IMG/VR virus record: IMGVR_UViG_3300047994_000025
Span: 3,360-67,359 of that record
Reading direction: 5' to 3' (one strand)
From: a virus
Length of the DNA: 64,000 nucleotides
Under the pieces are notes generated by a model, which worked only from the letters and a program-made list of their open reading frames with translations, made no database searches and was not told where the DNA came from. The first letter of the stretch is position 1, and each line of letters begins with the position of its first letter. The position numbers were made by a program, and so were the translations under genes. Below, one piece after another: positions 40,295 through 46,723 of this stretch.

Positions 40295-41206
40295 TTATGC
40301 CGCCTGTCGTACGCTTTGATCTAATGCGATCTGTTTGAAAAGGTGTGCAATCACTTCAACCGTCCACCCATTACCGAGCATCTTGTATCGTTGTGACTTC
40401 GGCGCAAAACCCGTGTAATTTTCGGGAACAGTCTGAAGTCTTTCGCATTCCAAGGGGGTCATTGCCCGCCATGTCGTAACACCGTTTTTCTGCGTTATAA
40501 CGGCAGTGCCACCAGAACCACAAGGATTACCGGCATTCCAAGCGCCAAGACATGCTGATTTTTCGTCAAGGTCTCGAAGATTTATGGACAATCTTTCGCG
40601 CGATAGTTTACCCTTTGATCCGCCAAAAAATTCGTCGTTCTTTTCAACCTTGTGTCTTGAAATATCCTTGACGTTGCCTTCAATGATGTCACGGATTGTC
40701 AGCTTTTTATCAATCCATTCATGAACCGGGAAATTCGTCCAATACAATCGTAATCGGTTTTGAGCACTAAAATCCGAACTGTTGATCAGTATTGGTTTTA
40801 CACCGAGAAACCCCGAAATGACGTCTTGCCAGTCCTGTTTCATGTTGACGTTTTCAAGTAAGAAATAACGCGGTTTGAGTTCTCGCATTAGTCGGACGAA
40901 CTCAAAAAATAGCTTTGATCGCGGGTCTTCAAAATTCAAACCTTGTCCGGCTGTGGAAAACCCTTGACACGGTGAACCACCCATCAAGAGCGATATTTGC
41001 GGCAAGCGATCGACATTGACTTTTGTCACGTCACCAAGCTGTACCGTACGTGGGAAATTTTGCTGCGTTACGGCAATTGCATGCTTGTCGATTTCCGACG
41101 CAAAGTAACGACCGTATTTCACGCCCGCGCGGTTCAACGCCAGTTGGCCGCAAGACATTCCATCGAAAAGCGAAGGCTTTTCGGAATAACGTGTGGATTT
41201 GTCCAT
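40295..41206 (-). CDS. C5-cytosine DNA methyltransferase whose native N-terminus (41689-41645) is displaced by an insertion
   Basis: SLFDG, GGSPCQ, LENV, QNRLRLYW, ERLQ, LGNGW; original start MTGDLFGGGFNVLSL lies 477 bp upstream. Confidence 0.9.
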   Translation of the reverse strand: MDKSTRYSEKPSLFDGMSCGQLALNRAGVKYGRYFASEIDKHAIAVTQQNFPRTVQLGDVTKVNVDRLPQISLLMGGSPCQGFSTAGQGLNFEDPRSKLFFEFVRLMRELKPRYFLLENVNMKQDWQDVISGFLGVKPILINSSDFSAQNRLRLYWTNFPVHEWIDKKLTIRDIIEGNVKDISRHKVEKNDEFFGGSKGKLSRERLSINLRDLDEKSACLGAWNAGNPCGSGGTAVITQKNGVTTWRAMTPLECERLQTVPENYTGFAPKSQRYKMLGNGWTVEVIAHLFKQIALDQSVRQAA

Positions 41207-41651
41207 GATATGTGCTATCCTGTTTTCGGATTAACGTGTGGATTGGAGAGCCTCGATGACCCTGAAGCCAGTGAGAGAAACCGTCGCCCGGATGGTTGAC
41301 CCGTATTCCTTCATGCCCGACAACAGCGGAGACGATTTGATCGGTGAGATGGTTCGGAACGGTCGAGATGATGCGCTTCGCAAGGCAGACCGCATCATCT
41401 CCGCAGTTCTCTCTGCGGACACGATGACCCTTCAAGAGCCTAAGCGTCCTAACCTCGATGCCAGCAATATGAAGTTCGGCAACTGCCATCAGTGCGGCGT
41501 TCGCGACAATCTCGGAATGACTGAAGATAACGCCCTTATCTGCGGGTCGTGCGCTGATGCCAATCACTTGGCTGACTGGATTGACTACGCTCGGGCGCTG
41601 CGTGGAATTATCTGTTCCGACTCCACACGTTAATCCGAACGCGGAAGCGAA
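41168..41651. mobile_element. Element E1: 470-bp transposase-less insertion with 7-bp target duplication
   Basis: AAGCGAA at 41168-41174 and 41645-41651; TTCGGA(A/T)TAACGTGTGGA at 41180 and 41225, inverted at 41622-41639; removal restores NVLSL|FDGMSCG. Confidence 0.85.
41256..41633 (+). CDS. E1 cargo: 125-aa protein with CxxC...CxxC zinc site
   Basis: GGAGAG RBS; CHQC and CGSC; stop codon lies inside the right repeat. Confidence 0.65.
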   Translation: MTLKPVRETVARMVDPYSFMPDNSGDDLIGEMVRNGRDDALRKADRIISAVLSADTMTLQEPKRPNLDASNMKFGNCHQCGVRDNLGMTEDNALICGSCADANHLADWIDYARALRGIICSDSTR

Positions 41652-41685
41652 AGCACGTTAAAACCGCCGCCGAACAAATCACCCG

Positions 41686-41880
41686 TCATCGTGAAGCGTA
41701 CCTTTTTAGAACTGCAATCAATGTGTTCAATTCGTTGACGGTGAACAGCGCGTACGGCTGATTCTGGTGATAGGTGTTCAGTCGCACCGTCACGACGTCG
41801 CCTTTTCGGGAAACGCCGAGATTACCTATGATTTCGACCTTTGTCGATTTCGGAACCCCGGCGAACAGATCACCCGACAT
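41686..41880 (-). CDS. Small hypothetical protein (N-terminal SGDLF)
   Basis: Coupled to neighbouring genes by overlaps. Confidence 0.6.
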   Translation of the reverse strand: MSGDLFAGVPKSTKVEIIGNLGVSRKGDVVTVRLNTYHQNQPYALFTVNELNTLIAVLKRYASR

Positions 41881-42301
41881 AACGGATCATTACCCCGGCT
41901 TCATCCGCCATTGTGTTCGCGGCGGTGAACTCTTCCTTCGGCATGGATGTTTCGCCCGGACCGACGACAACGCACGTGATACCGGCTTGAATGATCGACT
42001 TCATACAGCCGGAGCAAGGCGAATGCGTTGTGAAGATCGTACAGCCGAGCAACGACACTCCGTTACGTGCGGCGAAGGCGATTGCGTTTTGCTCGGCGTG
42101 GCTGGCGAACAGATACTTCGCCGGTCGTTCCCGACGTTCCGGAAGATCACGAACACCGCGCGGCGGACCGTTGAAGCCCGTCGACCTGATTTCGTTCGTA
42201 CCGGTGCCAGCGATCACCGCGCCGACCTGTGTCGAGTCTTTTGACATTGTCGCGGCATGTTCCGCGAAACCCATAAGATACTTGTCCCACTTGTCGCTCA
42301 T
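41870..42301 (-). CDS. dCMP deaminase
   Basis: SKD.STQVGAVI, TGFNGPPRG, HAEQNAI, PCSGC. Confidence 0.93.
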   Translation of the reverse strand: MSDKWDKYLMGFAEHAATMSKDSTQVGAVIAGTGTNEIRSTGFNGPPRGVRDLPERRERPAKYLFASHAEQNAIAFAARNGVSLLGCTIFTTHSPCSGCMKSIIQAGITCVVVGPGETSMPKEEFTAANTMADEAGVMIRYVG

Positions 42302-42474
42302 TTCCGACCCCAACTTAAGGCGGCATTGAACACGAAGCCTTGTGCCGACGCGACCACGAAACCGAAGAAATAGGAAGACCAGTCAACCGGCCCGCTGTAC
42401 CACGTCCGCGCGATCGGATAGACCGCCGCGCACAACGCAAATCCAATAATCCAACGTCCTACTGTGTTCATCAT
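42298..42474 (-). CDS. Small membrane protein (58 aa)
   Basis: Hand-translated MMNTVGRWIIGFALCAAVYP...; ATGA overlaps on both sides. Confidence 0.55.
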   Translation of the reverse strand: MMNTVGRWIIGFALCAAVYPIARTWYSGPVDWSSYFFGFVVASAQGFVFNAALSWGRK

Positions 42475-43022
42475 GCGGACACCGGACGGGAAAGCTTCGC
42501 CTTGGCGGCTGCAACAACCTTTGCTTGGTGGATTGCGTCATCAAGGGCGTAGTGTTTGACACCGACGAATTCGACCGTCTTTTGATCGAATTCGGAAATA
42601 TCGATCAAAGTTCGAAGGCAGCGCGGCGCGCGGAAGTGCCATGGCAAGTTCCCCTTGTTGCACGCGTAATAAGCCGCTTCGGTTAACCCGACGTCGAACT
42701 GTGGCGGCTTCGCCCATAGCTGTTTCACTTCGTACGCGCCGCGATACCATTCGGTAAACGAATCGAGCGCTTCAGGAAGTGGACGGCGATCGTTCATCAG
42801 GAAGTGTCGGGCTTTGAGGAATTCCGGATCGGTCGCCCATAGACGACGCGTTGTTTCGTCTATGCACAAGCCATGATCAAGCGATGACCACAGGTCGATG
42901 TTCACATAGAACCGATCGACAATCACGCCGTCGTTGGGGTCGAAAGCACATGCGCCGATTGACAATACGACCGCGCCGGGGTGCTTTCCAAGTGTTTCGA
43001 TATCAATTGATACGTCAACCAT
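42471..43022 (-). CDS. DEDDh 3'-5' exonuclease (DUF5051-like)
   Basis: IDIETLG, SIGAC, FD, HYALDDA. Confidence 0.88.
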   Translation of the reverse strand: MVDVSIDIETLGKHPGAVVLSIGACAFDPNDGVIVDRFYVNIDLWSSLDHGLCIDETTRRLWATDPEFLKARHFLMNDRRPLPEALDSFTEWYRGAYEVKQLWAKPPQFDVGLTEAAYYACNKGNLPWHFRAPRCLRTLIDISEFDQKTVEFVGVKHYALDDAIHQAKVVAAAKAKLSRPVSA

Positions 43023-43161
43023 GCTAAAGGTTCTCCGTTCATTAGCGGGTGTCAAATCGCATGGATTAACGATCTATGTCAAATGCAAAATACCTGTTGA
43101 CAGGTGACGCCGTTCAAGCATACAAGCCAAACCGTCAACGGCAACACGGAGAAAATTGCAC

Positions 43162-43920
43162 ATGGCAAATCGGAAATTCACAGTGACGTTTGATGTCGCT
43201 GACGATGAATTCGAAAACTTCATGACCCGTCTTTCGGGCGGCAAGATTTTCGAAGGGGAAATTCCCCGCAATCTCACACTGAACACCGGCGAAGGTGACG
43301 AAGGCGACGGCCCGGTTAACACCGGATCGGTCGACAAGTTCGGCGTAACTTGGGATGCTCGATTCCACGGCGTCGCCAAGAATACGAACAAGGATGGTTC
43401 GTGGAAGCGCACCAAGGGTCTGTCGGACGCCGTCAAGGCTGAAGCCGACGCTTACGAAGCCGCACAGAAGGCGGCGTTTACCGGCAATGTGACCGGACCG
43501 GCTGTCACGGAACCCACTCCGGCACCTGTCGCCGCGCCTGTAACTGCCGCACCTGTGGCCGAACCCGCTCCGGTCGCCGCACCTGTCGGAATGCCCGGAC
43601 TGCCGGTCGCAGCGCCCGCCGCTCTTCCGCTTCCCGTCGCTCCGGTAGCGAAGCCGCCGATCAGCTATGAAGAAGTCGTCGCGCTCTTCGGTCAGGCGTC
43701 CGCGAAAGACCCGTCGATCGCCGCGAACTTCGCACAGCTTTACGCGGAATGCGGTATCAGCGATCCGAACGCGCTGACCACCGACGAAACTCTTCGTCGC
43801 AAGCTCGCCGACCGGCTTGAAGCCGTAATCGCGGCGGCTATCCGACTTTCGGGGTTGGAACCTCAGTCGAACAGACCTGCTCTCAAATCGCACTCCAAGG
43901 TTGACAGGTTGACCCCATGA
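43162..43920 (+). CDS. Conserved-looking hypothetical replication-module protein with Pro/Ala linker; C-terminus extended by element E2
   Basis: DKFGVTWDARFH...KDGSWKRTKG motif; native end LEAVIAA* now sits at 45470-45503. Confidence 0.7.
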   Translation: MANRKFTVTFDVADDEFENFMTRLSGGKIFEGEIPRNLTLNTGEGDEGDGPVNTGSVDKFGVTWDARFHGVAKNTNKDGSWKRTKGLSDAVKAEADAYEAAQKAAFTGNVTGPAVTEPTPAPVAAPVTAAPVAEPAPVAAPVGMPGLPVAAPAALPLPVAPVAKPPISYEEVVALFGQASAKDPSIAANFAQLYAECGISDPNALTTDETLRRKLADRLEAVIAAAIRLSGLEPQSNRPALKSHSKVDRLTP

Positions 43921-44183
43921 CCAATCGTCGTGTTCATAATCTTATCGTAGTCTGGATCGTTCAGCCTGATGCTGAAGTCGTAGATATCGATCAAGCGCTT
44001 GGTGCCGTACTTCAGCAGCGCCTTGGCTCGGAGCGTCTCCAGATCGTAGCCACGACCGCCGCACTGCTCGACGACCGGATCGGTGATGATCGTGTCGACG
44101 TACAACTTCCCGTCCAGCTCTTCGGTCTCCATGGCCAGGTAGCCATCCAGCCGCAGCAGATCAAACCCAACAATTCCCCGCAT
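43863..44183 (-). CDS. E2 cargo: hypothetical protein (106 aa)
   Basis: Protein-like composition, G-rich RBS before ATG 44183, stop just inside the left end. Confidence 0.55.
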   Translation of the reverse strand: MRGIVGFDLLRLDGYLAMETEELDGKLYVDTIITDPVVEQCGGRGYDLETLRAKALLKYGTKRLIDIYDFSIRLNDPDYDKIMNTTIGHGVNLSTLECDLRAGLFD

Positions 44184-44248
44184 GCCCGTCCCCGCTTTCG
44201 GCGCGGACATTACCGGGACCGGGTTACCAGTCAACTAAGGGTCGCGGC

Positions 44249-45394
44249 ATGACGGCTTACTACAACGAGATCGATCCGTACGCCGCTCAGTGGCTTCGCA
44301 ACCTCATAAGCAAAAACCTCATCGCTCCGGGCGATGTCGATGAAAGGAGCATCGTGGATGTCCATCCCGACGACCTCAAAGGGTACAGTCAGTGCCACTT
44401 TTTCGCAGGCATCGGAGGCTGGAGCCTCGGGGCACGGCTCGCAGGATGGCCAGACGATCGACCTCTTTGGACTGGTTCCTGCCCGTGCCAGCCGTTCTCA
44501 GCGGCAGGAAAAGGCGAAGGGAAAGCAGACAAGCGTCACCTCTGGCCAGTCTTCTTCAACCTCATCCGTGCCCAGCGGCCCCATGTCGTCATGGGAGAAC
44601 AGGTTGCGGCTGCGGTTGGAAAGGATTGGCTCGACGGAGTGCATTCTGACCTGGAAAGCATCGACTACGCCTGCGGGGCTGCCGTTGTCCCGGCTTGTGC
44701 CGTCGACGCGCCCCACAGAAGAGATCGCCTCTGGTTTGTGGCCCACCCCGACCCTGCCGAACGGCGGGAGATCGATAGCCTGCGCGGACGAATGGCGCGG
44801 CAATACCCCGTACCACAAAGGCAGGAAGCTTCAGGTGGACCTTTCCCAGACGGTAAGGATGGTCAAGGGCATAGCCCTGTGGCCAACGCCGAACAGCCAG
44901 ATCAGTGGGGATACCCCAGAGACGCACGAAGCGCGGCAAGCCAGGGTGGTGGCAAAGCATGGGCGCAGGATGGGGACACCATTGGTCGTGCATGCGATGC
45001 ACGCGGAATCGGGAACCACGATAGCGGCTCTATGGGCGACACCAAAAGCGTCGGACGGGAAGGGCAACATCTACCTACCAGAACCAGATTGCAGGCGGGT
45101 GGAGCTTCGGAAGCAGGTCGGCGGAATAGCACTTCATGGTCAGGAGCAGAGTTCATCGTCGGAGCGGACGGAAAAGCCCGGCGCATTGAACCCGGCATTC
45201 GTCTCCTGGCTCATGGGGTTCCCGCCAGAGTGGGAAGATTGCGCGCCTACGGAAACGCCATCGTCCCGCAAGTCGCGGCAGAAGTGATCGGCGCATTTAT
45301 GGAGACACACAGCCCGTCCGCCCGATCCGCTCCGAGCTTTGATCCACTACTCGGATCGGGCGGACTACCGTTGGAGCAAGGGAATGAGCAATGA
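44249..45394 (+). CDS. E2 cargo: C5-cytosine methyltransferase, large polypeptide
   Basis: FFAGIGG, TGSCPCQPFS, GEQV, HRRDRLWF, YGNAIVPQVA. Confidence 0.9.
   Translation: MTAYYNEIDPYAAQWLRNLISKNLIAPGDVDERSIVDVHPDDLKGYSQCHFFAGIGGWSLGARLAGWPDDRPLWTGSCPCQPFSAAGKGEGKADKRHLWPVFFNLIRAQRPHVVMGEQVAAAVGKDWLDGVHSDLESIDYACGAAVVPACAVDAPHRRDRLWFVAHPDPAERREIDSLRGRMARQYPVPQRQEASGGPFPDGKDGQGHSPVANAEQPDQWGYPRDARSAASQGGGKAWAQDGDTIGRACDARGIGNHDSGSMGDTKSVGREGQHLPTRTRLQAGGASEAGRRNSTSWSGAEFIVGADGKARRIEPGIRLLAHGVPARVGRLRAYGNAIVPQVAAEVIGAFMETHSPSARSAPSFDPLLGSGGLPLEQGNEQ
44334..45287 (+). CDS. E2 cargo: nested alternative-frame methyltransferase partner polypeptide (motif IX, WPTP repeats)
   Basis: 317-codon +1-frame ORF; LWPTP x2 and LWATP; LNPAFVSWLMGFPPEW. 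Confidence 0.75.
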   Translation: MSMKGASWMSIPTTSKGTVSATFSQASEAGASGHGSQDGQTIDLFGLVPARASRSQRQEKAKGKQTSVTSGQSSSTSSVPSGPMSSWENRLRLRLERIGSTECILTWKASTTPAGLPLSRLVPSTRPTEEIASGLWPTPTLPNGGRSIACADEWRGNTPYHKGRKLQVDLSQTVRMVKGIALWPTPNSQISGDTPETHEARQARVVAKHGRRMGTPLVVHAMHAESGTTIAALWATPKASDGKGNIYLPEPDCRRVELRKQVGGIALHGQEQSSSSERTEKPGALNPAFVSWLMGFPPEWEDCAPTETPSSRKSRQK

Positions 45395-45536
45395 TCGTAT
45401 CAACCTCGGAAGACGAAAGCAGGAGGGGACCCCCGAATGTCAGATCAACCTCAGAAATCGGAAAGCCCCCGCCGACCGGCTTGAAGCCGTAATCGCGGCT
45501 TAACACCGTCGACGGGCGCGAATGCCCGTCAAACAT

Positions 45537-45612
45537 TGGGGAGTCGCCAAGCGGTAAGGCACCGGCTTTTGGGTCCGGCATTTCATAGGTTCGAATCCTA
45601 TCTCCCCAACCA
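45537..45612 (+). tRNA. tRNA-Gln(UUG)
   Basis: Acceptor TGGGGAG/CTCCCCA, D arm GCCAAGCGGTAAGGC, anticodon loop TT-TTG-GG, GTTCGAATC, encoded CCA. Confidence 0.92.
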
Positions 45613-45634
45613 CTTCTTTTTCACCGGGTAAAAC

Positions 45635-46723
45635 ATGACGTATAATCTTCGACCGTCAGCGTCCGGTATATGGACGAAGTGCGCCGCAAATCCGCGCATT
45701 GCACAGAATGCAAAGACGATACCCGGCAGCACCGACGCCGCACGCGAAGGAACATGCGCGGCATGGGTCGCGGAATGTGTTCTTAAAGGCGGGTCGACGT
45801 GCGCCGACATGGTCGGTAAAGTGCACGAAAACGGTTGGGTCGTGGACTCCGAAATGGCGTATCACGTTCAAGGATACGTCGACATGGTGCGGTCGCGCGG
45901 TGGCACGATCAACGCCGAAATGTTCGTGCGTCTGACCGAGACGATCGCCGGTACGTATGACTCTTCGACGGTGTCGAGTGACGCCGAAACACTCTTCGGT
46001 GATGACCTGAAATACGGGTTCAAGATTGTCGACGTGTGGGAATGCACACAGTTGATTATCTATCTGTACGCCGAGTATATCCGGCTCGGTTGTCCGCCGT
46101 CGATCAAGAAAGTCACAATGGGGATTTACCAGCCGCGCGCGTTCCATCCAGAAGGCATTCACCGCACGTGGACGATATCAATTCAAGAACTGTACGAACG
46201 CGCCGCCAAGATCGCCGAGCAAGGCGAAGCGTGCCAAGACCCGAACGCCGTCGCGACTGCCGGAGCGCATTGCGAACACTGCAAAGGTCGGCTGGAATGC
46301 TTGACATTGTCGGCAAATCTTGGTGCGATGTACGAACGAATCGAGCGTGCCGAAAGCGGTCCGATGACGTCCGAACAGTTGGCGGAAGAAGCGAACTTCT
46401 TAGTCACCCTTGAGTCGATGCTGAAGGCGCGCAAGACGGCTGTTGAAGCCGAGCTTGAAACGCGACTTGACAACGATGAATACATCCGTGGATGGGGTAA
46501 GAAAGACCGTTTCGGCAATCGCGTTTTTACGGTTGACCCTGTCACGGTTCATCTGTTAACAGGTGTCAACCCGTTTGAAACGGTGACGATCACACCGGCG
46601 AAGTTGGAGCAAGCCGGAGCGAACAAGAACATCGTCAAGAGCATCACCCGCCAACCGAAAATCGGTTCGGCGTTGAAACAAACCACAGACAAAGATTTCG
46701 GGAGAATGTTACGTGACCGTTAA
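45635..46723 (+). CDS. Cas4-like PD-(D/E)xK exonuclease (DUF2800-like)
   Basis: LRPSA...W..C, AREGT.A, GTYD, DLKYG, QL..Y, IYQPR, HCEHC. Confidence 0.85.
   Translation: MTYNLRPSASGIWTKCAANPRIAQNAKTIPGSTDAAREGTCAAWVAECVLKGGSTCADMVGKVHENGWVVDSEMAYHVQGYVDMVRSRGGTINAEMFVRLTETIAGTYDSSTVSSDAETLFGDDLKYGFKIVDVWECTQLIIYLYAEYIRLGCPPSIKKVTMGIYQPRAFHPEGIHRTWTISIQELYERAAKIAEQGEACQDPNAVATAGAHCEHCKGRLECLTLSANLGAMYERIERAESGPMTSEQLAEEANFLVTLESMLKARKTAVEAELETRLDNDEYIRGWGKKDRFGNRVFTVDPVTVHLLTGVNPFETVTITPAKLEQAGANKNIVKSITRQPKIGSALKQTTDKDFGRMLRDR

What the first reader, a model, noticed from the sequence alone, without database searches (positions are those of the whole stretch)
41168..45499. Candidate new family of transposase-less mobile cassettes with a shared three-box end code (E1 and E2)
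Seen in sequence: two insertions with unrelated cargo and opposite orientation share end architecture. The E1 left end (41175-41243) and the reverse complement of the E2 right end (45467-45399) align without gaps at 38/69 positions (hand count). The shared scaffold is GGCTTT.CG-N9-GT.GAT...TCCTG.TTTCG-N9-GT.GAT, i.e. a box repeated exactly 45 bp apart in both. Each element has a third, inverted box at its other end with the CG at positions 8-9 from the boundary, followed by AGTCG(G)AACAGA. The 9-nt core is similar among the three boxes of one element but differs between elements (E1 GA(A/T)TAACGT; E2 ATTTCTGAG/TCTTCCGAG/ACTTTCGGG). Flanking duplications differ in length (7 vs 30 bp), unlike the fixed TSDs of DDE transposases. 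I recognised no transposase, integrase or reverse transcriptase in either element or in the window. Inference: a non-autonomous gene-delivery system mobilised in trans, with the core setting specificity. It superficially recalls mycobacteriophage MPME elements and MITEs, but I cannot match it to a described family.
Basis: partly seen in the sequence, partly recalled or inferred. Interest (0 to 1): 0.9.

Follow-up and report, generated by a model that had tools for sequence, protein, structure and literature searches.

The report
Crippled ISL3 transposons in a phage
The two inserts are worn-down, cargo-carrying copies of a well-known family of bacterial jumping genes (ISL3) that can no longer move by themselves, so they are real mobile elements but not a new kind.

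Summary
The sequence observation is confirmed. The two ends match at 38 of 69 positions (0 of 100,000 shuffles reach this), both box pairs lie 45 bp apart, and the flanking repeats are 7 and 30 bp.

Full-length relatives with the same ends encode ISL3 DDE transposases and mostly have perfect 8-bp target duplications.

E2 (43836-45467) keeps a 123-aa in-frame remnant of that transposase and carries a C5-methyltransferase passenger. Two independent runs hold a ~97% identical relative with the E2 site empty.

E1 (41175-41644) is a transposase-less cassette made of a two-box left end, a truncated passenger gene and an internal pseudo-end. It sits in codons 13-15 of the phage's own methyltransferase and supplies a new start codon.

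The "three-box code" is a terminal repeat plus a phased subterminal copy at one end, and a terminal repeat at the other end. The same layout occurs across ISL3 lineages, including a Tn7546-like element in Lactococcus.

E2's 30/32-bp duplication remains unexplained.

This scan has already described phage-borne ISL3 cargo elements and transposase-less ISL3 cassettes on other DNA (one search lists 8 of 18 matching notes, in at least 18 genomes). This is a new member of a known kind.

The parts
41168..41174 (.). Left copy of the E1 target duplication (AAGCGAA)
   Evidence: 7-nt exact direct repeat; the best 8-mer match is 7 of 8
41175..41644 (+). E1: 470-bp transposase-less ISL3-derived cassette (mobile insertion cassette type)
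41175..41199 (+). E1 terminal inverted repeat of the two-box end (box 1, IRL)
   Evidence: GGCTT tip plus the box; 17 of 24 identical to the other end
41220..41244 (+). E1 subterminal direct copy of the repeat (box 2), 45 bp inside box 1 and directly upstream of the RBS and ATG of the inward ORF
   Evidence: 21 of 25 identical to box 1; the same 45-bp spacing in L013, L014, L016, L019 and L020
40295..41206 (-). Phage C5-methyltransferase 1. It now starts at an outward-facing ATG (41204-41206) in the spacer between boxes 1 and 2, so its first 11 codons (MDKSTRYSEKP) come from E1.
   Evidence: L020 has the same outward MKKSTRYSEKP fused to its neighbouring gene
41256..41633 (+). E1 passenger ORF of 125 aa, a zinc-ribbon protein truncated at about residue 116; its stop codon lies inside box 3
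   Evidence: no family hit; 63% identity to a 202-aa Ensifer 'zinc ribbon domain-containing protein' and 57% to a 127-aa ENA protein
41617..41644 (-). E1 right end: inverted box 3 with a CCGCG tip in place of GGCTx, a pseudo-end that is internal in the full-length relative L020
41645..41689 (-). Orphaned original 5' end of methyltransferase 1 (MTGDLFGGGFNVLSL); it includes the right copy of the duplication at 41645-41651
   Evidence: rejoining gives NVLSLFDGMSCGQ, the exact N-terminal motif of 17 of the 24 homologues examined
43804..43835 (.). Left copy of the long duplication flanking E2 (exact 30-mer at 43806-43835; 31 of 32 from 43804); it encodes the native C-terminus ...ADRLEAVIAA
43836..45467 (+). 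E2: 1,632-bp defective ISL3-family transposon (passenger-carrying IS with a deleted transposase)
43836..43859 (+). E2 terminal inverted repeat of the single-box end (IRR), next to the transposase stop codon
   Evidence: 17 of 24 identical to the other end; identical to the IRR of the G003 element
43863..44234 (-). Transposase remnant of 123 aa: residues 1-41 and 376-440 of the 440-aa ISL3 transposase joined in frame, so the zinc ribbon and the whole DDE domain are deleted
   Evidence: 88% and 91% identity to P0001; about 1 kb missing relative to L007; domain positions
44249..45394 (+). E2 passenger: C5 cytosine methyltransferase (frame A). An overlapping ORF at 44334-45287 (frame B) also matches a methyltransferase family.
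45316..45365 (+). Conserved hairpin (14-bp stem, 22-nt loop) in the 160 bp next to the two-box end
   Evidence: (I19), 75: 6 of the 14 stem pairs show compensatory changes on both sides across 6 copies
45399..45422 (-). E2 subterminal copy of the repeat (box 2), 45 bp inside the terminal repeat
   Evidence: 16 of 24 identical to box 1; a second box at 45-46 bp in all 10 relatives examined
45444..45467 (-). E2 terminal inverted repeat of the two-box end (box 1, IRL). The spacer holds AGGAGG and an outward ATG at 45437.
45468..45499 (.). Right copy of the long duplication; it is followed by the native stop codon, a terminator hairpin and tRNA-Gln (45537-45612)

Best explanation
E1 and E2 are non-autonomous derivatives of two sub-lineages of the ISL3 family of DDE insertion sequences. 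These sub-lineages live largely in phage and prophage DNA and keep a passenger-gene slot beside the transposase gene.

The 'three boxes' are transposase recognition sites. Box 1 is the terminal inverted repeat of the left end. Box 2 is a direct copy 45 bp further in; it lies 55-56 bp in for some relatives, which is one helical turn more. Box 3 is the terminal repeat of the other end.

E2 is a passenger-carrying ISL3 element whose transposase gene suffered an in-frame deletion of about 1 kb. Both of its ends are intact.

E1 consists only of the two-box end, a truncated passenger gene and a third box. In the full-length relative L020 that third box lies internally, between the passenger gene and the transposase gene. 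E1 therefore moved as a mobile insertion cassette that used an internal pseudo-end.

Inferred, not shown:
- Both elements were inserted by a transposase supplied in trans, from a full-length relative in the host or in a co-infecting phage.
- The transposase binds the boxes and cuts a fixed 5 nt outside them.
- Box 2 acts as an extra, phased binding site for transpososome assembly or for repression of the inward promoter.

The two-box end carries no outward stop codon and holds an outward start codon. This is why the methyltransferase gene split by E1 still has an open reading frame.
For: - The strict 69-nt scaffold (27 fixed bases) retrieved 5 further IMG/VR loci, all with E2-type ends and all with different DNA outside the GGCTTT tip.
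- The full-length copy in L007 encodes a 440-aa protein with PF01610 (E = 1.2e-47), the ISL3 zinc ribbon, and NF033550 at 231 bits against a cut-off of 180.
- The window's 123-aa ORF equals residues 1-41 and 376-440 of that protein.
- 4 of 4 complete E2-type elements in other virus records have perfect 8-bp duplications.
- In a wider set, 9 of 10 loci have a perfect 8-bp duplication, and all 10 have a second box 45-46 bp inside the end.
- The E1 box occurs in 12 further IMG/VR loci, and 7 of these hold ISL3 transposases.
- One of those loci is phage Bcep22, where GenBank annotates 24-bp 'putative insertion sequence boundary' features around an ISL3 transposase.
- L020 shows IRR - transposase - box 3 (the same CCGCG tip and the same 30 nt as the E1 right end) - small ORF - two-box IRL. 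The unit as a whole is flanked by a duplication of 7 bp, or 8 bp if the ambiguous terminal G is counted with the flank.
- Removing E1 and one repeat copy restores NVLSLFDGMSCGQ, the N-terminal motif found exactly in 17 of 24 homologues examined and nearly so in the other 7.
- E2 empty site: contigs of runs X3 and X4 join 43805 to 45470 (skipping 1,664 bases, with 30 letters fitting both sides) in a ~97% identical relative. The site is also empty in Rhizobium phage RHph_TM3_3_9 and in L036.
- The record itself holds no PF01610 match.
- A Tn7546-like ISL3 element (merR, merA and transposase) on a Lactococcus plasmid has the same layout, with its second box 56 bp inside the end.
- Published ISL3 features agree: Tn7546 has the IR GGGTCTTCGGA and an 8-bp repeat (PMC9782665, passage read), and ISPpu12a carries passenger genes (PMC4133298, passage).
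Against: - E2 is flanked by a 30-bp repeat (31 of 32), not by 8 bp.
- E1 has a 7-bp exact repeat (7 of 8), and its right tip is CCGCG rather than GGCTx.
- No source of transposase was found. The record has none, and 0 of 301 sampled genomes of the family of a Neorhizobium MAG hold the E2 end with up to 2 mismatches.
- Among E1-type elements, 3 of 10 gave no clear duplication with my boundary calls (L011, L018b, L021). One E2-type locus (L131) gave none either.
- Binding of the transposase to any box, and any role for box 2, is inferred only.
- I could not consult ISfinder.
Confidence: 0.9

Rival explanations
1. A new family of transposase-less cassettes moved by an unknown, non-DDE recombinase, in which the 9-nt core sets specificity.
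For: Neither element encodes an intact recombinase, and the record has no ISL3 domain. The flanking repeats of the two window copies differ in length.
Against: Identical ends surround intact ISL3 transposase genes in other virus records, with 8-bp duplications at unrelated sites. E2 holds a remnant of that very gene. The core differences follow the transposase lineage, which is about 29-36% identical between the two types.
Confidence: 0.02
2. E2 entered by site-specific (integrase-type) recombination, or by homologous exchange through a 30-bp attachment-like identity with the 3' end of the target gene, as integrative elements do.
For: The 30-bp exact repeat duplicates the gene's 3' end, and the native stop codon follows the downstream copy. 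The empty-site allele holds the 30-mer once.
Against: E2-type relatives sit at unrelated sites with 8-bp duplications and carry no copy of this 30-mer. Pfam and PHROG scans of E2's ORFs named only methyltransferase families, and tblastn matched its small ORF only to the transposase. The upstream gene copy is not restored, because it reads on into E2 for 27 extra codons.
Confidence: 0.03
3. The element is the same (E2 is ISL3-derived), but its insertion here was non-canonical. Either two independent 8-bp insertions 24 bp apart in sister phages were recombined within the element, or an excised copy was captured at a staggered break by end-joining with 2 filler bases.
For: The repeat is 32 bp with one mismatch at its second base, or 30 bp plus 'CC'. 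Canonical relatives give 8 bp. A recombinant of insertions at positions 1-8 and 25-32 would give exactly 32 bp and could carry a polymorphism. That many alphaproteobacteria have Ku/LigD end-joining is recalled, not tested.
Against: No sister phage with either single insertion was found. X3 and X4 show only the empty site. A single aberrant transposition followed by a point mutation is not excluded.
Confidence: 0.35
4. E1 never moved as a cassette. A full-length L020-like element inserted into the methyltransferase gene and later lost its transposase gene and true right end by deletion in place.
For: L020 shows that the E1 module exists as part of a full-length element. E1's right tip is not a canonical GGCTx tip.
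Against: A 7-bp direct repeat abuts the CCGCG tip exactly 5 nt outside box 3, the normal tip-to-box distance. Removing E1 and one repeat copy restores the conserved NVLSLFDG. Recombination between box 3 and the true right-end box, which are direct repeats, would leave a GGCTA tip and not CCGCG (inference).
Confidence: 0.08

Closest known systems
ISL3 family insertion sequences that carry passenger genes (ISPpu12a; Tn7546 with merR, merA and an ISL3 transposase; the annotated IS of Burkholderia phage Bcep22)
   Same: The full-length relatives have the ISL3 DDE transposase. The terminal repeats begin GG(C/G)T.T.CGGA, compared with GGGTCTTCGGA for Tn7546 (PMC9782665 passage; L123). Relatives have 8-bp duplications. 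Passenger genes sit beside the transposase gene (PMC4133298 passage). Outward expression signals at an end are known for ISL3 members (PMC9330008 and PMC13216065 passages).
   Different: The window copies are defective: E2 has a deleted transposase and E1 has none. E2 has a 30/32-bp flanking repeat. E1 uses an internal pseudo-end. The phased second box inside the left end was not described in any paper I found, but I could not consult ISfinder or TnPedia.
Mobile insertion cassettes (MICs, e.g. MIC231 of Bacillus cereus)
   Same: These are units bracketed by IS-type inverted repeats, without a transposase gene, carrying passenger genes, flanked by a target duplication and mobilised in trans by the cognate transposase (definition read in PMC3913671). 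E1 fits this definition, and E2 fits it functionally.
   Different: MIC231 derives from IS231 of the IS4 family, whereas these derive from ISL3 and sit in a phage genome. Mobilisation in trans has not been shown here.
MITEs and mycobacteriophage MPME elements
   Same: They are small non-autonomous inserts with terminal inverted repeats, found in some phage genomes and absent from close relatives.
   Different: MITEs are usually non-coding. MPME properties are recalled only and no sequence comparison was run. The ends here belong to ISL3.

Membership tests
ISL3 family (IS / passenger-carrying transposon) | Encodes a DDE transposase of the ISL3 type (PF01610, NF033550) | tested here: inconclusive
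   Full-length relatives with the same ends meet it. E2 holds only a 123-aa remnant without the DDE domain. E1 has no transposase gene, and the record has no PF01610 match. The window copies are therefore derivatives, not autonomous members.
ISL3 family (IS / passenger-carrying transposon) | Terminal inverted repeats of the family type (begin GG..., about 15-39 bp; the length range is recalled) | tested here: met
   E2: 17 of 24 identical, with both tips GGCT. E1: 17 of 24, with the left tip GGCTT but the right tip CCGCG. The boxes are shared with 12 IMG/VR loci, with the annotated Bcep22 IS, and resemble the Tn7546-like ends.
ISL3 family (IS / passenger-carrying transposon) | 8-bp target-site duplication | tested here: not met
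   E1 has 7 exact (7 of 8). E2 has 30 exact (31 of 32). Relatives meet it: 4 of 4; 9 of 10; among 10 E1-type elements, 4 exact, 2 more if the ambiguous terminal G is assigned to the flank, window E1 at 7 of 8, and 3 unclear.
Mobile insertion cassette (MIC) | IS-type inverted repeats bracket passenger gene(s), with no transposase gene and a target duplication | tested here: met
   E1 has boxes at both ends, one 125-aa passenger ORF, no transposase and a 7-bp repeat. The definition comes from a PMC3913671 passage.
Mobile insertion cassette (MIC) | Mobilised in trans by the cognate transposase | not testable with these tools
   Only indirect evidence is available: a precise insertion with a duplication and an empty-site allele for E2.
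Integrase-type integrative element (att sites) | The same attachment identity segment flanks independent copies, and a tyrosine or serine recombinase is linked | tested here: not met
   Other E2-type copies have different 8-bp flanks. Family and tblastn scans of the ORFs of E1 and E2 found no integrase.

The most novel reading that the evidence does not exclude
A phage-dwelling branch of ISL3 may have become a modular vehicle for DNA-modification and anti-defence genes. It would have four features: a left end with two helically phased transposase sites; an outward start codon that lets the element land inside genes without silencing them; a swappable cargo slot; and, in the E1 lineage, an internal third site that lets the cargo slot leave alone as a cassette.

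Cargo seen here includes C5 methyltransferases, PAPS-reductase-like genes, a Vut_1/YhhQ-type transporter and an Aca2-linked small ORF.

E2's 32-bp duplication would then mark a second, non-canonical route of entry into phage genomes.
Probability: 0.25. Interest if true: 0.5.

Novelty: new member of a known kind. Interest (0 to 1): 0.28.

Why it matters
The result turns a candidate 'new mobile system' into two annotatable ISL3 derivatives.

It also documents, in one lytic-type Rhizobium-like phage, how IS-derived cassettes both break a phage DNA-modification gene (methyltransferase 1, now running from an IS-supplied start codon) and deliver one (methyltransferase 2).

The recurring two-site left end has conserved phasing of 45 or 55-56 bp across distant ISL3 lineages. 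This is a concrete, testable feature of ISL3 transposition that I did not find described.

Insertion sequences are reported to be rare in wild-type phages (PMC3091744 passage). Here 53 of 50,697 phage records hold an ISL3 transposase match.

Tried and rejected
- The loose box motif alone (TTCG-N9-GTNGA) is not enriched in the window (7 found against 6.07 expected), so I did not use it as evidence.
- A sigma-70 and terminator consensus scan of 41000-45700 found no promoter in either element end. It found only a weak terminator-like hairpin in the E2 spacer, and the counts were at shuffle level. It gives no support for, or against, outward promoters.
- Pfam, PHROG and NCBIfam gave nothing for the E1 ORF or the E2 123-aa ORF. 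tblastn with the full-length transposase solved the E2 ORF.
- I looked for an uninterrupted close homologue of methyltransferase 1 as an E1 empty site. The 80 loci returned were 41-54% identical, so none is a true empty site. I examined the N-termini of the first 24 only.
- I searched for the genomic context of the E1 cargo homologues. The single genome-contig scan found only a partial match at a contig end of a Neorhizobium MAG, with no E1 ends there.
- The E2 end was not found in the 301 sampled genomes of that MAG's family. These are a sample, so this does not show absence.
- Runs X3-X5 gave no cover of 40900-41683 (methyltransferase 1 and E1). That says nothing about an E1 empty site.
- Paper searches for a description of the subterminal second box in ISL3 returned nothing relevant by title or passage. 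I did not read those papers in full. ISfinder and TnPedia could not be consulted, and supplementary files were not seen.
- Three older papers were not held. The general ISL3 family ranges (IR length, size) are therefore recalled.

Full report
**Setting.** The window is bases 3360-67359 of a 67,359-bp IMG/VR virus record. It is related to Rhizobium phages of the RHph_TM3_3_9 / RHEph19 group, with 78% nucleotide identity over the helicase gene. The gene order around the finding is: helicase, C5-methyltransferase 1 (40295-41206, minus strand), E1, a 64-aa ORF, dCMP deaminase, a small ORF, an exonuclease, then on the other strand a 254-aa gene (43156-43920, phrog_29341), E2, tRNA-Gln (45537-45612) and a DUF2800 protein.

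**Observation.**
- The direct boxes are 45 bp apart in both elements, the E1 third box is a perfect 18-nt inverted copy, and the 30-nt flanking repeat of E2 is exact.
- The 18-nt E1 box occurs three times in the window against 0.09 expected and nowhere else in the record.
- The hand-counted 38 of 69 is correct. It exceeds all 100,000 shuffles (maximum 36) and every other ungapped 69-mer of the window on either strand (next best 33).
- The loose motif TTCG-N9-GTNGA by itself is at chance level.

**What E2 is.** A scan of IMG/VR with the strict 69-nt scaffold (27 fixed bases) returned five loci. All carry the E2 version of the end, and in each the similarity stops exactly at the GGCTTT tip, with unrelated DNA outside it.
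- One locus (L007) also holds the E2 left end, with about 1 kb more DNA between the parts that match E2. That extra DNA completes a 440-aa ORF (P0001).
- P0001 is an ISL3-family transposase: PF01610 at E = 1.2e-47, the ISL3 zinc ribbon, and NF033550 at 231 bits against a cut-off of 180.
- The window's 123-aa ORF (43863-44234, minus strand) is residues 1-41 (88% identical) and 376-440 (91% identical) of that protein joined in frame. The zinc ribbon and the whole DDE domain are therefore gone.
- Both ends of four further elements were located in their virus records. All four have perfect 8-bp flanking repeats: GGGCCGGT, CTGGCGTG, GGTGCTGG and TTGAGAAG.
- A profile of four such transposases (A3) found 14 loci. 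I could place both ends in 10 of them. Nine have a perfect 8-bp duplication (L131 has none), and all ten have a second copy of the terminal repeat 45-46 bp inside the end upstream of the cargo. Four of the ten are the elements, and L126 and L127 look like the same insertion.
- The passenger slot lies between the two-box end and the transposase gene. It holds C5 methyltransferases (window, L005, L006/G002, L008/G004, L126), PAPS-reductase-like genes (L007, L131), a Vut_1/YhhQ-type transporter with a phrog_15826 protein (G005), or proteins of unknown function.

**E2 is a recent insertion.**
- In Rhizobium phage RHph_TM3_3_9 and in IMG/VR locus L036, the homologue of gene 43156 ends ...KIAA* or ...PVAA* and runs straight into a terminator and tRNA-Gln.
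- More decisively, contigs of two runs from another study (X3 record 11 and X4 record 17) join 43805 directly to 45470. They skip 1,664 bases, and 30 letters fit both sides. The left flank there is about 97% identical to the window, and the 231 bases laid on the right flank are identical.
- These are contigs, so they show that the empty form exists. They do not show its frequency.

**What E1 is.** The E1 box is found exactly in 12 more IMG/VR loci. Seven of them encode ISL3 transposases that are 29-36% identical to P0001.
- One locus is Burkholderia phage Bcep22. Its GenBank record already marks 24-bp 'putative insertion sequence boundary' features around gp34, gp33 and an ISL3 transposase. 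A paper lists Bcep22 among the few phages known to carry an IS (PMC3091744, passage read).
- The other loci hold 570-900-bp elements with the same ends and one or two passenger ORFs but no transposase (L010, L011, L015, L017 and two in L018). One of them carries an Aca2-family regulator (E = 7e-18) behind a small ORF.
- The flanking repeats of E1-type elements are exact 8-mers in L010, L015, L017 and L019. They are 8-mers in L018a and full-length L020 if the ambiguous terminal G is given to the flank. They are 7 of 8 in the window. They are unclear in L011, L018b and L021.
- L020 is the key relative. Its order is right end, transposase gene, then a box with the same CCGCG tip and the same 30 nt as the E1 right end, an unrelated 85-aa ORF, and a two-box left end that matches E1 for 79 nt (by eye). 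The whole 1,734-bp unit is flanked by AACAAAG(G).
- E1 is thus the left module of such an element. In the window it is bounded by its own 7-bp repeat, placed exactly 5 nt outside box 3, which is the normal tip-to-box distance.
- Homologous recombination between box 3 and the true right end would have left a GGCTA tip. I therefore read E1 as having transposed on its own with box 3 as a surrogate end. That makes it a mobile insertion cassette in the published sense (PMC3913671, passages read).
- The E1 passenger is a zinc-ribbon protein with only two database relatives: a 202-aa Ensifer protein (63% identical) and a 127-aa ENA protein. The E1 copy is cut off at about residue 116 and finishes inside box 3.

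**E1's target.** E1 lies in the 5' end of methyltransferase 1. The orphaned start reads MTGDLFGGGFNVLSL (41689-41645). Removing E1 and one repeat copy gives ...NVLSLFDGMSCGQ. Of the 80 homologous loci returned, I examined the first 24: 17 begin with exactly NVLSLFDG and the other 7 differ at one or two positions. The gene now starts at an ATG in the spacer between boxes 1 and 2 (MDKSTRYSEKP-SLFDG...). L020 has the same outward MKKSTRYSEKP fused to its neighbour. The E2-type end likewise carries an RBS-like AGGAGG and outward start codons, and in L005 an outward frame from such an end is fused in frame to a truncated methyltransferase gene. Outward expression signals are documented for ISL3 members (PMC9330008 and PMC13216065, passages read). 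No promoter was detected here by a simple consensus scan.

**The 'three-box code'.** Box 1 and box 3 are the terminal inverted repeats (17 of 24 identical in each element). Box 2 is a direct subterminal copy.
- The spacing is 45 bp in window E1, L013, L014, L016, L019 and L020.
- It is 45 bp in window E2 and 45-46 bp in all ten E2-type loci.
- It is 55-56 bp in L018a and L021.
- It is 56 bp in a Tn7546-like merR-merA-transposase element on a Lactococcus plasmid. That element's published counterpart has the IR GGGTCTTCGGA and an 8-bp repeat (PMC9782665, passage read).
- A difference of 10-11 bp keeps the helical phase, which suggests that a protein binds both sites. That box 2 helps transpososome assembly or represses the inward promoter is inference.
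- The 9-nt 'cores' differ between E1 and E2 because the two belong to different ISL3 sub-lineages. They do not define a separate specificity code.

**Unexplained.** E2 is flanked by 30 exact bp (31 of 32 with the preceding two bases), whereas its relatives make 8 bp. The empty allele holds the 30-mer once, so this is a true duplication made at or after insertion. Three possibilities are open, and none was testable here:
- recombination within the element between two sister phages that carried independent insertions 24 bp apart;
- end-joining capture at a staggered break with two filler bases;
- an aberrant strand transfer followed by a point mutation.

The upstream gene now reads 27 codons into E2.

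**Source of transposase.** None was found. The record has no PF01610 match, and 0 of 301 sampled genomes of the family of a Neorhizobium MAG hold the E2 end (a sample only). ISL3 transposases are common on plasmids (3,296 records matched) and present in 53 of 50,697 phage records.

**Earlier notes of this scan.** Notes on the same genome describe the E1 split of the methyltransferase and the E2 30-bp repeat; I checked both independently. A word search shows that follow-up agents have already described phage-borne ISL3 elements with DNA-modification cargo, and transposase-less ISL3 cassettes, on other DNA. It reported 18 matching notes in at least 18 genomes, of which 8 were listed. My reading was reached before that look-up and agrees with them. 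I took from them the pointer to the MIC concept, which I then verified in a paper.

**Verdict.** This is a new member of a known kind, with modest interest resting on the phased two-site end, the pseudo-end cassette and the anomalous 32-bp duplication.

Noticed in passing
window 44249-45394 and 44334-45287 (+): The E2 methyltransferase region is open in two overlapping frames, and each matches a different PHROG 'DNA methyltransferase' family over its whole length: frame A phrog_363 (E = 3e-82) and frame B phrog_1008 (E = 2e-36). Against the L005 copy, differences fall on frame A third positions in 44249-44570 (34 of 43) but favour frame B third positions in 44746-45235 (37 of 78). This suggests a frame switch or two overlapping genes that is conserved between copies.
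   Followed up: partly
window 45316-45365; aligned copies in L005-L009: A 14-bp stem with a 22-nt loop, about 100-150 bp inside the two-box end of E2-type elements, keeps pairing through compensatory changes on both sides at 6 of its 14 pairs in 6 copies. Its role is unknown. It could be an RNA element downstream of the cargo gene or a DNA structure.
   Followed up: partly
L017:1042-1936: An 895-bp transposase-less ISL3-type cassette with an exact 8-bp duplication carries an Aca2/YdiL-family regulator (E = 7e-18) preceded by a 101-aa ORF with no family hit. This is the layout of an anti-CRISPR operon.
   Followed up: partly
L123 (NZ_CP042409.1 58700-63300): A Tn7546-like merR-merA-ISL3 element on a Lactococcus lactis plasmid has a second copy of its terminal repeat 56 bp inside the left end. 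The two-box end is therefore not confined to phage elements.
   Followed up: partly
L005 / G001 (IMG/VR record with direct terminal repeats): Only the cargo methyltransferase and the two-box end of an E2-type element are present; no other end was found with up to 3 mismatches. The end abuts a second, N-terminally truncated methyltransferase gene of the same family, with an outward frame of the end fused in frame to it.
   Followed up: partly
L120, L122 and rows: On many plasmids the gene annotated just upstream of the ISL3 (ISSm4-type) transposase gene is a type I restriction endonuclease or DEAD/DEAH helicase gene. I did not check whether it lies inside the element.
   Followed up: no
window 41667-41689 and 41858-41880: Two neighbouring minus-strand genes (the orphaned methyltransferase start and the 64-aa ORF) begin with near-identical 23-nt stretches (87% identical) encoding M(T/S)GDLF(G/A)G.
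   Followed up: no
window 43572: The related phage in runs X3 and X4 has 12 extra bases in the Ala/Pro-rich repeat region of gene 43156-43920.
   Followed up: no
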